Origin: a virus
Lineage: Duplodnaviria; Heunggongvirae; Uroviricota; Caudoviricetes
Virus record (IMG/VR): IMGVR_UViG_2511231131_000010
DNA length: 46,425 nucleotides
Reading direction: 5' to 3' (one strand)
The stretch's first letter is position 1, and every line of letters begins with the position of its first letter. Positions 33,001 through 36,000 of this stretch are shown here, in pieces. Made by a program: the position numbers.

Positions 33001-36000
33001 TGCGTCCAGTTCATCAATACCGGTCATCAGCGCCCTGGATTTCTCCAGTCCCTGATTGCGGCATTCAACACGGTCGACCACTTCCGGAAGGACATCATCA
33101 ATGTGAACCGGCTGAATGACGCCCTTTCCGGTCGACAGTGAGGCCATCATGTTCTGCGCATCCTTCAGGGCATCCTCGGCTGCTTCACAGGTATACGCAT
33201 CACGTAAATTCTGTAATGCTTCAGTCAGTGTTTTTTCTGCATCGCGCAGTGCGGCATTGCGCCGCAACGCTGCGACATAGTGCTCCAGTGAAGACTTCAC
33301 CCAGGTTTTGCGTCCGGTGTCGGTAATCACCGGGGCAAGTTCCGGCATCTCATTGCACAGCAGTACGGGGTCAATGACGCCGGATATGCGAGCCTGTCTG
33401 CAAATCCCCGCGTAAATATCCCGGTACTGACGCACAAAAAATACATCCGCCGGAAGTGTGGCCAGAATATCCATCACTTCCGGATCGGCCCCACGCAGAA
33501 AAAACGCACCGATGACAGCGCCTTCCAGGTCATCGTTACGCCATGCCGGGGTGTTCTGGCTGGTCATGCGGCAACACCTCCGATACGAGAACGGTAGCTG
33601 GGCCAGTTAAACGACAACCAGTTGCGCCCGCCATCGGTGATCCTGTCGGCAATCCGGGGACTGATGAACGCCCACAATTCTTCCGGTGAAAGGTTGCTGA
33701 TCAGGATAGTTGGCAAAATACCCTCATACCGGGCATTGATAATTTCCTGCAAAATGGCCATTTCAGCCGCACTGCCAAACTGAACGCCGACTTCGTCGAC
33801 AATCAGCAAATCCAGTGACGCATAATGCTCAATGACGTCATCCGCTGTTTTTTCACTGTCATTCCGCCAGCAGTTTTTCACAGCCCGGGTAAGGCGCATC
33901 ACGTCGGTGATCTCCACACTGGCCAGATAGTTACGGATGATGTGTTTTGCCATTGATACCGCCAGATGATTTTTCCCGGTACCGCAACTGCCGGTCATAA
34001 CAAGACTGGTACCGTTCTCCAGCATATCTGGCCAGTTCTCCGCATAGCGGCGACAGGCCGCAAGATTTCTGGCTGCGTCAGGATTAACCTCCAGATAATT
34101 ATCAAACTCGCAGTCCCGAAAACGCAGAGCAATTCCGGCGTTATCAGTCAGTTCTTCCGCCTTGAGGGACGACAGTTCCATGGTCAAATCACTGGCCTCA
34201 GCGATCAAGCAGTCAGGGCAGCATGAAATTTTTTCTCTGTCCTCGCCATTACGATCGATCCACACCAGTATATGCGTACGATATTTACCGTGTTTTTCGC
34301 AATATCCGCGACCTTCACGCATCAGGCAGGAACGATAAGGCCATGGCTTTTCGCCCTTCTGAGCAAATGCAATCTCTGCCCGTAACTCATCCATTTCTGC
34401 CCGTAACTCATCCATTCGCGCCTGTAGTCTTGTTTGTTTCTCACGTTGGTCAATCGTCATCATCGCTGTCACCTCAGAATGTCAATTTGTTACTGGATTT
34501 ACCGAATTTGTCAGACATGGCTCCCAGGCCAGCCAGGACATCGACCTGTCGCTGTCGCCCACCTCCGTGAGCGGCTGGCTGTTGCCAGTAATCTTCGAAG
34601 TGACGATCGGGTCCAAAGAACGTCGCAGCCTGCTTCACGAACTGTGTGCCGATATTTCCTGTAGCACGTACCCAGGCGGCATACCGCTTCACGCCATCAA
34701 GCATGGTCTCCGGTTTTATTCCCTCCCTGATACGGGCTTTCCAGGCTTTGAAGGCTGCTGACTTGGAATTGCCACCAGCACGTTTGGGATATTCCTGCCA
34801 GGCCTGTTCAAATTCCGGTGAATATTCCTGTCGGGCAGAACGCGCTGGCGCAGACGCGTCAGCGGATGCATCAATAGTGTTTTTAGTCTCCGTTGTAATC
34901 TCTGTAGTAATCTCTGTATTTGTATCAACATTCGGCGTATCCCCTGTTCCGTTATGACGTCGGGGGGTGTTCCGTTTTAACGTAATAGCTGTATCGCTGA
35001 TTGCATTATTGCTGTTACTTTCTGGCGAAACAGAAGAAGGTGTGGTGATGGCCGCAATTGCCTGTGGGTTGATCCCGACAAACAAAATATTGCTGCATTT
35101 CACCCCATCGAGCATTTCCACCGTGCGTAAATCCAGAGTAATAAACCCTGCATCGCGCAGACGCTTCAGCGCATCTGCGGTTTCCCTTTTCCCGAAACCA
35201 AACTGCTCAGCAAACGCCTGGTAGCTTCTTTGCAGTTTGTCGCCCTGAAAACGCTTGCGATATCCCAGCAACGCTCCGGTGTGCTCATCCCTGACCTCTG
35301 TCGGGCGGTACCAGTAAACGATCTCTGAAAGCAGAGCGATAGCCGTCGCATCCGGACGCCCACTGGGTAGTCGAATATATTTCCACCAGTTCGCAGGTGT
35401 AACATTGCCGGAAATATTAATTTGACCAATAGCCATAACTTCCGGTGTGGGGGCGTAACGGCTCATACAACCTCCTTCCGCGGCATGAGAATTGTGTAGC
35501 CACGCGCAGGTTGTAGTCTGGCTTTTGCATCAATAGTAAGCGTTGCAATTTTTCGGATATGAAGATAACCAGCTCTTTCCAGTGCCAGGGTTTCCCTGAA
35601 TATCGCTTGCTTAGAACAACAGCAGAAATCAGCAAGCACCCGATGATCAATAACTCTCTCGCCTTCACCGTCTGAAGAACCCGACATCAAAACACGCAAC
35701 ATAATCAGGCGCTGAATCGGGTTATCGAAAGCACATCCGCACACAAACTGAAAACAGTTCACGCCACACCTCCCAGACGCTTAAACATTTTTCCAGACAG
35801 AAATACCGCCAGAGGGTAACTGATGGTGTAGCTACGTCCCTGTAGTTCGCACACGACTTTCTGGCTTTCAGCGTTGACTAGGCAAACCCGCAGAACGTGA
35901 CCGTTGCTGGTGGCGAACCACTGCCCCACACGGGGGCAACGGTTGTATCGGTGATACAGGGAATTAACGATGTGGCGGATCATGGACGCACCTCCGCCGT

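What the first reader, a model, noticed from the sequence alone, without database searches (positions are those of the whole stretch)
34881..34996. Iteron-like direct repeats inside the O-like initiator gene: candidate replication origin
GTAATCTCTGTA is tandemly duplicated (34895-34918) and TCCGTT-containing partial copies recur at 34887-34894, 34946-34954 and 34969-34994. They lie in the central Thr/Glu-rich linker of the initiator, the same location as the origin iterons inside lambda O.
Basis: partly seen in the sequence, partly recalled or inferred. Interest (0 to 1): 0.4.

Follow-up and report, generated by a model that had tools for sequence, protein, structure and literature searches.

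The report
Replication origin inside phage initiator gene
The repeats are real and most likely mark the prophage's replication origin, buried in the middle of its own initiator gene: three 23-bp binding-site repeats next to a 12-bp tandem array whose DNA sequence is conserved in phages from E. coli to Clostridia.

Summary
GTAATCTCTGTA is duplicated at 34895-34918, and TCCGTT motifs recur nearby. All lie in the disordered linker of a 330-aa initiator (34474-35466, minus strand). A DnaC-like loader gene and a DnaB helicase gene follow.

- **23-bp repeats.** Three units (34918-34986) are read in three reading frames. Their sequence follows the N-terminal winged-helix domain when domains are swapped naturally. 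These are the likely iterons.
- **12-mer array.** ACAGAGAWTACW (34882-34917) varies from 1 to 4 copies among near-identical prophages. It is the least stable duplex in the replication module.

The same layout, 21-23-bp repeats followed by this 12-mer array, recurs in homologous initiator genes across many phyla. Third codon positions in the 12-mer are as conserved as the others (GAG:GAA is 125:4, against 582:1159 elsewhere in the same genes). The constraint is therefore on the DNA.

Best reading: an origin embedded in the initiator gene, working like lambda ori or SPP1 oriL. The protein is not a lambda O family member. No experiment exists for it. It is a new member of a known kind. The cross-phylum 12-mer is the unexpected part.

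The parts
34474..35466 (-). Replication initiator gene (330 aa). N-terminal winged-helix domain about aa 26-141 (35044-35391). Disordered linker aa 142-212 (34831-35043). Helical C-terminal domain aa 213-297.
   Evidence: phrog_270 'replication initiation protein' E 7e-78. No Pfam or NCBIfam hit. AF2 model pLDDT: 75-86 for the N-domain, 24-36 for the linker, about 85 for the C-domain. Foldseek matches are all winged-helix proteins, including DnaD-N 2v79, but none is significant (no match at E <= 1e-3; best 3.2e-3).
34964..34986 (.). Iteron 1. Gene orientation: ATTACGTTAAAACGGAACACCCC.
   Evidence: Repeat family D5, 23-bp spacing. Core AACGGAACA is invariant in 46 distinct type-A genes. Homologous to the TACGTTnnAACGTA dyad iterons of Xenorhabdus, Arsenophonus and Rosenbergiella relatives.
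34941..34963 (.). Iteron 2. Gene orientation: CCGACGTCATAACGGAACAGGGG.
   Evidence: The only substitutions among relatives fall outside the AACGGAACA core (34955, 34961, 34965).
34918..34940 (.). Iteron 3, degenerate, plus the conserved junction. Gene orientation: ATACGCCGAATGTTGATACAAAT.
   Evidence: In 23-bp phase with iterons 1 and 2. Resembles the third iteron of Rosenbergiella L170 (GATACGCCGAAAAGTGAGAC). Ends in the family-wide junction GAC(A/G)(A/T)AT that precedes the 12-mer array.
34882..34917 (-). 12-mer array: ACAGAGATTACT, ACAGAGATTACA, ACGGAGACTAAA (encodes TEIT TEIT TETK). Proposed unwinding and helicase-entry element.
   Evidence: Copy number is 1-4 among near-identical prophages. 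50-bp window 34874-34924 is the least stable duplex in the 32167-36200 module, dG -58.8 against a mean of -72.1, sd 5.3. GC is 0.34 against 0.52 for the gene. The array is conserved at DNA level across phyla, including third codon positions.
33564..34472 (-). DnaC/IstB-like AAA+ helicase loader gene.
   Evidence: PF01695 E 4e-14. phrog_50 'DnaC-like helicase loader' E 1e-87.
32167..33567 (-). DnaB-family replicative helicase gene.
   Evidence: PF03796 DnaB_C E 8e-74. TIGR00665 E 3e-92, below its cut-off.

Best explanation
Window 34882-34986 is the prophage's origin of replication, embedded in the linker-coding part of its own initiator gene.

Proposed mechanism:
1. The initiator's N-terminal winged-helix domain binds, probably as dimers, to three 23-bp-phased, partly dyad-symmetric iterons (34918-34986). 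This step is inferred.
2. The resulting nucleoprotein complex destabilises the adjacent low-stability 12-mer array ACAGAGAWTACW (34882-34917). This step is inferred.
3. The C-terminal domain recruits the phage DnaC-like loader and DnaB helicase to the opened DNA. This step is inferred from gene order and from the lambda and SPP1 precedents.

The peptide encoded by the origin is a disordered spacer. Its sequence is largely dictated by the DNA elements.

Shown here: the anatomy, the DNA-level constraint, the linkage of iteron type to N-domain type, and the conservation of the architecture.

Not shown: binding, unwinding and replication.
For: 1. **Context.** The gene is in phrog_270 'replication initiation protein' (E 7e-78). 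A DnaC-like loader gene and a DnaB helicase gene follow it directly.
2. **Non-coding period.** The 23-bp repeat period is not a multiple of 3, so the three copies are read in three frames. The iteron motif occurs nowhere else in the window.
3. **Natural domain swaps.** Four N-domain types (A-D) are joined to the same C-domain, and each carries its own repeat set. Type A keeps its repeats with three different C-terminal tails.
4. **Low variability.** The ori-coding 90 nt (34897-34986) is the least variable part of the gene: 4 variable sites, against 68 in the 420 nt of the N-domain. Yet it encodes a peptide with pLDDT 24-36.
5. **Conserved architecture.**
   - In 87 loci with a homologous N-domain, 66 have at least 2 tandem in-frame 12-mers. 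The loci span Enterobacterales, Acinetobacter, Bacillales, Clostridia, Atribacterota, Anaerolineae and others.
   - In 60 of those 66, the 92 nt upstream show 21-23-nt periodicity above the 95th percentile of in-gene controls (Mann-Whitney p 2e-35).
6. **DNA-level constraint on the 12-mer.** Positions 3, 6 and 9 are 95%, 92% and 98% conserved. GAG:GAA is 125:4, against 582:1159 elsewhere in the same genes (Fisher p 2e-50). The most variable position is a second codon position.
7. **The 19-mer is specific to such genes.**
   - The exact 19-mer ACAGAGAWTACWACAGAGA occurs in at least 120 IMG/VR contigs.
   - In 109 of the 120 it lies in frame in an ORF of at least 200 aa.
   - In all 44 representatives taken at 90% identity it is preceded by 22-24-nt periodic repeats.
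8. **Duplex stability.** The array is the least stable duplex of the replication module.
9. **Experimental precedents.** Lambda ori lies in O (PMC7466680). SPP1 oriL lies in gene 38 (PMC6316719). TP901-1 ORF13 and Tuc2009 Rep2009 bind repeats in their own genes (PMC8965321). 80alpha ORF20 cannot be complemented in trans (PMC5499656).
Against: - No experiment exists for this element or any close relative.
- The window's own iterons are weak. There are two good copies and one degenerate copy. Its lag-23 score (0.42) only just exceeds the control 95th percentile of 0.41.
- The 12-mer array tolerates 1-4 copies.
- Types B and C, with the same C-domain, lack the ACAGAGA array. They carry other short tandem arrays at the same place.
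- The array is only moderately AT-rich (GC 0.34). Several intergenic stretches of the window are less stable.
- What recognises the 12-mer in a sequence-specific way is unknown.
- PHROG function labels are predictions.
Confidence: 0.75

Rival explanations
1. The repeats are only by-products of replication slippage and protein-level selection in a disordered Thr/Glu-rich linker. They have no cis-acting DNA role.
For: The 12-bp unit is in frame and varies between 1 and 4 copies. A second polymorphic in-frame duplication lies in the neighbouring loader gene. The linker is predicted to be disordered.
Against: - The 23-bp repeats are out of frame with one another.
- Third codon positions of the 12-mer are conserved across phyla with locus GC from 0.22 to 0.61, and GAG:GAA is 125:4 against 582:1159.
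- The linker is the least variable DNA of the gene.
- The repeat type follows the N-domain type.
Confidence: 0.07
2. The repeats are initiator-binding sites used for autoregulation, copy control or exclusion of related phages. The true origin lies elsewhere, for example in an AT-rich intergenic region.
For: Cloned ori regions of lactococcal phages give a resistance phenotype in trans (PMC8965321). SPP1 has a second G38P-bound site, oriR (PMC6316719). The window has intergenic stretches less stable than the array.
Against: - The iteron motif and the 12-mer have no other copy in the 46-kb window.
- The iterons are always joined to a low-stability array in a fixed order and orientation. That is the anatomy of an origin, not an operator.
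- All characterised analogues use the intragenic site as the origin.
Confidence: 0.1
3. The conserved 12-mer array and the 'ASADAS' boundary act mainly as homology patches. On this view they promote modular exchange of initiator domains between phages.
For: Homology to type D phages starts exactly at the first 12-mer (34917). Homology to phiP27 (type B) starts at 34877. The N- and C-terminal parts of array-bearing genes assort into 3 and 10 families.
Against: Recombination joints at conserved sequence are an expected consequence of conservation, not an explanation for it. A homology patch does not require a fixed position after 22-23-bp repeats, low duplex stability, or conservation between phages of hosts too distant to recombine.
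Confidence: 0.05

Closest known systems
Bacteriophage lambda ori within gene O (lambdoid and Stx phages)
   Same: - The origin lies in the middle of the initiator gene.
- The order is the same: DNA-binding N-domain coding region, then iterons, then an AT-rich tract, then the C-domain coding region.
- The iterons have dyad symmetry and are spaced about two helical turns apart.
- Iteron type goes with the N-terminal half of the protein.
- In lambda, two iterons plus the AT-rich tract suffice for unwinding (PMC7466680).
   Different: - There is no detectable membership of the lambda O family: no Pfam hit, and the O-like PHROGs match only at E 6e-7 to 8e-5.
- There are three 23-bp units here, against four to six 19-bp iterons in lambda-type origins.
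- The 'AT-rich' side is a sequence-conserved 12-mer tandem array.
- The partners are a DnaC-like AAA+ loader and a phage DnaB, not lambda P with the host DnaB.
Bacillus phage SPP1 oriL within gene 38 (G38P replisome organizer, G39P loader, G40P helicase)
   Same: - The gene order is initiator, loader, DnaB-type helicase.
- The origin lies inside the initiator gene and consists of direct repeats followed by an AT-rich tandem-repeat tract that serves as the unwinding element (PMC6316719; sequence seen).
- The two proteins share weak PHROG matches: phrog_428 and phrog_1701.
   Different: - The N-domains are not detectably homologous (hhalign probability 0.2).
- The SPP1 repeats are about 11 bp (ACGACAGAGAA-like) and its AT tract is a 9-bp repeat (AACAATGAT). 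It has no ACAGAGAWTAC array.
- No second, oriR-like site was found in this window.
Lactococcal P335 phages TP901-1 (ORF13) and Tuc2009 (Rep2009); staphylococcal phage 80alpha ORF20
   Same: These replisome organizers bind direct repeats located within their own genes, and the repeats serve as the origin (PMC8965321). 80alpha ORF20 cannot be complemented in trans, which suggests an embedded origin (PMC5499656). Staphylococcal phages 37 and phiMR11 carry the same ACAGAGATTACT array in their initiator genes.
   Different: The hosts and N-domain families differ. I could not read the primary papers, so I could not compare the repeat sequences of TP901-1, Tuc2009 or r1t.
Iteron plasmids (RK2 oriV with TrfA, R6K, pPS10): iterons plus repeated 13-mers in the unwinding element
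   Same: A winged-helix initiator binds phased iterons next to an unwinding element made of short repeated motifs. The initiator can also contact these motifs as single-stranded DNA (PMC10602881, PMC4980987). This serves as a working model for the 12-mer array.
   Different: Plasmid origins are intergenic. The Rep proteins are unrelated in sequence. This comparison is an analogy only.

Membership tests
Lambda-type origin (ori inside the initiator gene) | Repeats lie inside the initiator ORF, between the DNA-binding N-domain and the C-terminal domain. | tested here: met
   Repeats at 34882-34986 correspond to aa 161-195. They fall inside the pLDDT 24-36 linker, between the winged-helix domain (aa 26-141) and the helical C-domain (aa 213-297).
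Lambda-type origin (ori inside the initiator gene) | Several phased direct repeats of about 19-23 bp with internal dyad symmetry. | tested here: met
   The window has three units in 23-bp phase, two good and one degenerate. Relatives have 3-5 clear units with the TACGTTnnAACGTA dyad.
Lambda-type origin (ori inside the initiator gene) | An AT-rich, easily melted tract flanks the iterons on the C-terminal side. | tested here: met
   34874-34924 is the least stable 50-bp duplex of the replication module. GC is 0.34 against 0.52 for the gene.
Lambda-type origin (ori inside the initiator gene) | Iteron sequence co-varies with the N-terminal, DNA-binding half of the initiator. | tested here: met
   N-domain types A-D share the same C-domain but each has its own repeats. 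Type A keeps its repeats with three different C-terminal tails.
Lambda O protein family (Pfam Phage_rep_O) | Significant match to the family profile. | tested here: not met
   No Pfam family at E <= 0.01. Only HTH_36 appears, at E 0.054, when the limit is raised to 10. O-like PHROGs match weakly: phrog_391 at 6e-7 and phrog_678 at 8.5e-5.
Lambda replication module | A P-type partner delivers the host DnaB. | tested here: not met
   The downstream genes are an IstB/DnaC-like AAA+ protein and a DnaB-family helicase.
SPP1 G38P-type replisome organizer (TIGR01714 / PF09681) | Profile match or detectable homology of the N-domain. | tested here: not met
   No NCBIfam or Pfam hit. hhalign of the N-domain alignment against G38P gives probability 0.2. 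The only links are shared weak PHROG matches (phrog_428, phrog_1701).
SPP1 G38P-type replisome organizer | Gene order initiator, loader, DnaB helicase, with repeats plus an AT-rich tract inside the initiator gene. | tested here: met
   for this window. for SPP1.
Origin class defined here: phrog_270-type initiators with 21-23-bp iterons followed by an ACAGAGAWTACW array | Homologous N-domain, at least 2 tandem in-frame 12-mers, periodic repeats immediately upstream, and the junction GAC(A/G)(A/T)AT. | tested here: met
   phrog_270 E 7e-78. Two exact 12-mers and one degenerate 12-mer. Junction GATACAAAT. Lag-23 score 0.42, just above the control 95th percentile.
Any replication origin | Supports initiator-dependent autonomous replication; the initiator binds and unwinds it. 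| not testable with these tools
   This needs cloning, footprinting, KMnO4 probing or marker-frequency sequencing.

The most novel reading that the evidence does not exclude
The 12-mer array ACAGAGAWTACW may be a sequence-specific origin element, not just an AT-rich tract. It is shared by a very large, cross-phylum class of phage initiator genes whose N- and C-terminal domains differ. It would be read by a factor that has not been identified. Candidates are a single-strand-binding surface common to these winged-helix initiators, or a conserved feature of DnaB-type helicase loading or priming. If so, its sequence dictates the 'TEITTE' peptide found in these proteins. It would also give a simple DNA signature for locating the origins of thousands of phages and prophages. 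I found no description of it in the searchable literature. That library lacks most subscription-journal papers, including the main review on phage replication modules.
Probability: 0.4. Interest if true: 0.6.

Novelty: new member of a known kind. Interest (0 to 1): 0.42.

Why it matters
It gives a concrete, testable map of the origin for a prophage replication module found in hundreds of E. coli genomes: 219 of 5426 complete genomes carry a place covering at least 80% of this gene. Stx-converting phages carry initiators that share its C-terminal domain and, in type D, its 12-mer array. Their replication modules have been catalogued without an origin being defined (PMC8044961).

More broadly, the 19-mer ACAGAGAWTACWACAGAGA, preceded by 22-23-bp repeats, appears to mark origins in phages of Proteobacteria, Firmicutes and other phyla. 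That would help origin annotation, vector design and studies of phage incompatibility.

It is also a clear case of a protein linker whose sequence is set by an overlapping cis-acting DNA element.

Tried and rejected
- **Profile searches.** Pfam and NCBIfam gave nothing for the initiator. A sequence search of PDB chains gave only noise.
- **SPP1 comparison.** hhalign of the N-domain alignment against SPP1 G38P showed no homology. SPP1 oriL has no ACAGAGA array.
- **Second site.** I looked for another iteron or 12-mer site elsewhere in the window, as an oriR analogue. None was found.
- **Promoters and terminators.** The scan of 33400-38400 found 4 promoter-like sites against 5.5 expected, none of them in the repeats. 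Terminator-like sites were somewhat more frequent than expected (11 against 5.7, sd 2.5), and none lies in the ori segment.
- **Literature.**
  - Searches for the motif strings and the peptide TENTTE/TEITTE found nothing relevant.
  - Searches on iterons in DnaD-like phage initiators found nothing specific.
  - Weigel & Seitz 2006 and Zuniga 2002 are not held.
  - The Eru-phage paper does not discuss origins.
- **Structure.** Foldseek against the PDB gave no match at E <= 1e-3 (best 3.2e-3). I use it only as consistent with a winged-helix fold.
- **Rejected ideas for the 12-mer.**
  - It is not a DnaA box.
  - It is not a sigma-70 promoter; my inspection found no convincing -10 or -35.
  - The idea that the 12-mer is the iteron is rejected because it does not follow the N-domain type.
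Full report
**1. The observation**

On the + strand, GTAATCTCTGTA occupies 34895-34906 and again 34907-34918. TRF calls the array at 34887-34918 with period 12 and 2.7 copies. TCCGTT recurs at 34889, 34948 and 34971. All of these lie inside the minus-strand ORF 34474..35466 (330 aa), in the stretch that encodes ...TLKRNTPRRHNGTGDTPNVDTNTEITTEITTETKN....

The repeats are not chance:
- Local direct repeats (16 nt, at most 2 mismatches, lag 8-40) number 6 in the whole 46-kb window.
- The expected number is 0.21 from mononucleotide shuffles or 0.44 from an order-2 Markov model.
- Two of the six are adjacent in this linker.
- TRF reports only five tandem repeats in the whole window.

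**2. Two repeat families, not one**

The repeat finder separates the repeats into two families:
- D1, the 12-mer.
- D5, TGTTCCGTTATGACGT and TGTTCCGTTTTAACGT, 23 bp apart.

D5 has no other good match in the window. The 12-mer, in the register ACAGAGAWTACW, also occurs only here.

A 23-bp period is not a multiple of three. The copies are therefore translated in different frames and cannot be a peptide repeat.

Read in gene orientation, the segment is:
- ATTACGTTAAAACGGAACACCCC
- CCGACGTCATAACGGAACAGGGG
- ATACGCCGAATGTTGATACAAAT
- ACAGAGATTACT
- ACAGAGATTACA
- ACGGAGACTAAA

That is three 23-bp units (34964-34986, 34941-34963, 34918-34940) followed by the 12-mer array (34882-34917).

**3. The gene and its neighbours**

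The ORF matches phrog_270 'replication initiation protein' (E 7e-78). Its C-terminal part matches several PHROGs of initiators and DnaD-like loaders. It has no Pfam or NCBIfam hit and no sequence relative in the PDB.

The genes directly downstream on the same strand are:
- a DnaC/IstB-like AAA+ protein (33564..34472);
- a DnaB-family helicase (32167..33567).

An AlphaFold model built on 23 homologues gives three parts:
- a confident N-terminal domain (aa 26-141, pLDDT 75-86) with helix-turn-helix plus beta-hairpin topology;
- a disordered stretch (aa 142-212, pLDDT 24-36);
- a helical C-terminal domain (pLDDT about 85).

Foldseek matches for the model are all winged-helix proteins: TFE/TFIIE, CodY, MarR/ArsR and the DnaD N-domain 2v79. 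None is significant: no match reaches E <= 1e-3 (best 3.2e-3). The repeats encode aa 161-195, inside the disordered stretch.

**4. Close relatives: natural domain swaps**

The window is 100% identical over this gene to a prophage of E. coli O111:H2 strain 12A. Of 5426 complete E. coli genomes, 479 have a match and 219 hold a place covering at least 80% of the gene.

In deposited phages, only the C-terminal half is found. It occurs in Stx-converting phages and in phiP27. Homology stops at query position 403-444, which is window 34877-34917 and falls within or at the edge of the repeats.

IMG/VR relatives show a modular gene. Four N-domain types are fused to the same C-domain, which starts at ..TI(G/D)ASADASAPARSARQEY:
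- type A, as in this window;
- type B, as in phiP27 (Pfam HTH_36, E 9e-12);
- type C;
- type D, as in Stx1 phages.

Type A also occurs with three different C-terminal tails.

Each N-type has its own repeats in the linker:
- Type D has three 23-nt units at 23-bp spacing (GGTTTTCCCTTCTCCGCGGCGAG-like), followed by the same 12-mer array.
- Type B has 15-bp repeats and 24-bp repeats.
- Type C has repeats of about 21 bp and a different 12-bp array, GAACCAGTCAAw.

A DNA alignment shows that types A and D become alignable exactly at the first ACAGAGATTACT. So the 23-bp repeats travel with the DNA-binding domain, as lambda iterons do. The 12-mer array does not.

**5. Variation within type A**

I compared 46 distinct type-A gene sequences.
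- The 12-mer occurs in 1, 2, 3 or 4 copies.
- Apart from that indel, window 34897-34986 is the least variable part of the gene. It has 4 variable sites in 90 nt, against 68 in the 420 nt that encode the folded N-domain.
- The AACGGAACA cores are invariant.

A disordered linker that is the most conserved DNA of its gene points to a constraint on the DNA.

**6. Distant relatives: a conserved architecture**

tblastn with the type-A N-domain finds no deposited coliphage. It does find homologues at 41-55% identity in phages of Geobacillus, Acinetobacter, Bacillus, Eggerthella and Staphylococcus.

All six that I examined have the same layout inside the gene:
- three or four direct repeats at 22-23-bp spacing, for example GGGGTGTGACGTTAGAACGTCA four times in Geobacillus phage PT9.1;
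- immediately after them, two to four tandem 12-mers TACAGAGAWTAC.

A scan of one genome per GTDB species with the N-domain alignment returned 80 loci. They come from Enterobacterales, Acinetobacter, Bacillales, Clostridia/Lachnospiraceae, Syntrophomonas, Atribacterota, Anaerolineae, Thermodesulfobacteriota, Competibacter and others.

Across 87 loci in total:
- 66 have at least 2 in-frame tandem 12-mers and 49 have at least 3. Several of the loci with fewer are cut by a contig end or have a short ORF.
- In 60 of the 66, the 92 nt upstream show 20-24-nt periodicity above the 95th percentile of in-gene control segments. The period is 23 in 33 loci, 22 in 23 loci and 21 in 4 loci (Mann-Whitney p 2e-35).

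Stacked sequences show three things:
- each unit is a G/C block plus a dyad such as TACGTTnnAACGTA;
- the junction GAC(A/G)(A/T)AT precedes ACAGAGA;
- the window's third, degenerate unit resembles the third unit of Rosenbergiella.

The window's own periodicity score (0.42) only just passes the 95th percentile of 0.41. Its iterons are among the weakest of the family.

**7. The 12-mer is constrained as DNA**

I scored 170 units from non-identical loci whose GC ranges from 0.22 to 0.61.
- Third codon positions are as conserved as first and second positions: position 3 is A in 95%, position 6 is G in 92%, position 9 is T in 98%.
- The most variable position is position 8, a second codon position that switches Ile, Asn and Thr.
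- Glu is encoded GAG:GAA at 125:4 in the array, against 582:1159 elsewhere in the same genes (Fisher p 2e-50).
- The bias holds in the AT-richest loci (32:1 against 110:298).

A 48-nt query covering the array hits 138 phage records. The listed hits lie almost entirely in genes annotated as replication initiator, O-like, DnaD-like or primosomal. The hosts include Acinetobacter, Staphylococcus, Bacillus, Klebsiella, Erwinia, Burkholderia and Pseudomonas.

- In 109 of the 120 it lies in frame within an ORF of at least 200 aa.
- Over all 120, the array sits a median of 155 aa from the first ATG.
- The N-terminal parts of these ORFs fall into 3 BLAST-linked families (sizes 89, 16 and 1; type A belongs to the family of 16).
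- The C-terminal parts fall into 10 families.
- All 44 representatives taken at 90% identity have 22-24-nt periodic repeats upstream.

In Staphylococcus phage 37 and Burkholderia phage DC1 the array follows visibly phage-specific repeats. In Pseudomonas phage AF the upstream repeats are not obvious by eye.

**8. Physical property**

The 50-bp window 34874-34924 is the least stable duplex in the initiator gene. It is also the least stable in the whole 32167-36200 module. Its nearest-neighbour dG is -58.8, against a window mean of -72.1 with sd 5.3. About 1% of all positions in the 46-kb window are less stable, and the five least stable lie elsewhere. GC is 0.34 for the array, against 0.52 for the gene.

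**9. Interpretation**

The anatomy matches origins known to be embedded in initiator genes:
- In lambda and the Stx phages, iterons and an AT-rich tract lie in the middle of O. Two iterons plus the AT tract suffice for unwinding (PMC7466680).
- In SPP1, G38P binds direct repeats of oriL inside gene 38, next to an AT-rich unwinding element. G39P and G40P follow (PMC6316719). My reading of the SPP1 sequence agrees.
- TP901-1 ORF13 and Tuc2009 Rep2009 bind repeats in their own genes (PMC8965321).
- 80alpha ORF20 cannot be complemented in trans (PMC5499656).

I therefore read 34918-34986 as the initiator-binding iterons. I read 34882-34917 as the unwinding and helicase-entry side of the origin. 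The encoded peptide is a passive spacer.

Binding, unwinding and replication are all inferred. Why the 12-mer is conserved in sequence, and not merely AT-rich, is unexplained.

**10. Membership**

- The element works like a lambda or SPP1 origin.
- Its protein fails the profile tests for lambda O and for the G38P/TIGR01714 family.
- Its loader and helicase differ from those of lambda.
- It belongs to a widespread class for which I found no description: phrog_270-type and related winged-helix initiators with 21-23-bp iterons followed by an ACAGAGAWTACW array.
- I found no paper mentioning this motif. The searchable library lacks the key review and several primary papers.

**11. Verdict**

The finding is real and is a plausible origin. 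As a kind of thing it is ordinary, and I file it as a new member of a known kind. The cross-phylum, codon-independent conservation of the 12-mer array is the part worth an experiment.

Noticed in passing
window 34375-34416 (-), inside the DnaC-like loader gene 33564..34472: A perfect 21-bp tandem duplication (TCTGCCCGTAACTCATCCATT twice) encodes MDELRAE twice near the loader's N-terminus. It is polymorphic in IMG/VR relatives: 2 copies in 71 loci and 1 copy in 53.
   Followed up: partly
window 35463-35762 (-): A 99-aa ORF overlaps the initiator start by 4 nt. It matches phrog_4617 'replication initiation protein' (E 1e-28). It is 27% identical to the HTH_36 N-domain of type C initiators (E 6e-6). 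It is a stand-alone winged-helix-like protein, either a relic of a module swap or a second ori-binding or regulatory protein.
   Followed up: partly
window 34877-34917; L002 and L003: The mosaic joints of the initiator gene coincide with origin elements. Homology to type D (Stx1 phages) begins at the first 12-mer. Homology to phiP27 (type B) begins at the ASADAS boundary.
   Followed up: yes
L051 (type C) and L069/L003 (type B, phiP27), linker regions: Initiators that lack the ACAGAGA array carry other short tandem arrays at the same position. Type C has GAACCAGTCAAw two to three times (12 bp). Type B has AAACATGATCCGCAAG... twice (24 bp), plus 15-bp repeats whose copy number varies.
   Followed up: partly
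window 28021-28270 (-) and 25681-27531 (-): Three tRNA genes, Arg(tct), Arg(tcg) and Met(cat), are followed by a 616-aa ORF. No ORF of at least 90 aa lies between them. From my own knowledge, the layout resembles the tRNA-stx-nanS region of Stx phages without stx. That resemblance was not tested.
   Followed up: no
window 36171-37019 and 37128-37835 (-): Two Rha/Ant-like regulator genes lie between the immunity region (a LexA-family repressor at about 38250..38945 on the + strand) and the replication genes.
   Followed up: no
P0065 (Yersinia enterocolitica homologue), linker: The linker contains the peptide repeat DVTPPTLKRNTPLRS. This 15-aa unit is 45 nt, or two 22/23-bp iterons. It shows that pairs of iterons can surface as in-frame peptide repeats. 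The motif TLKR is encoded by the iteron core ACGTTAAAACG.
   Followed up: no
window 22603-22689: An A-rich 23-bp tandem repeat (TRF 22603-22651) overlaps the least stable 50-bp duplex of the whole window (22639-22689, dG -50.1). Its function was not examined.
   Followed up: no
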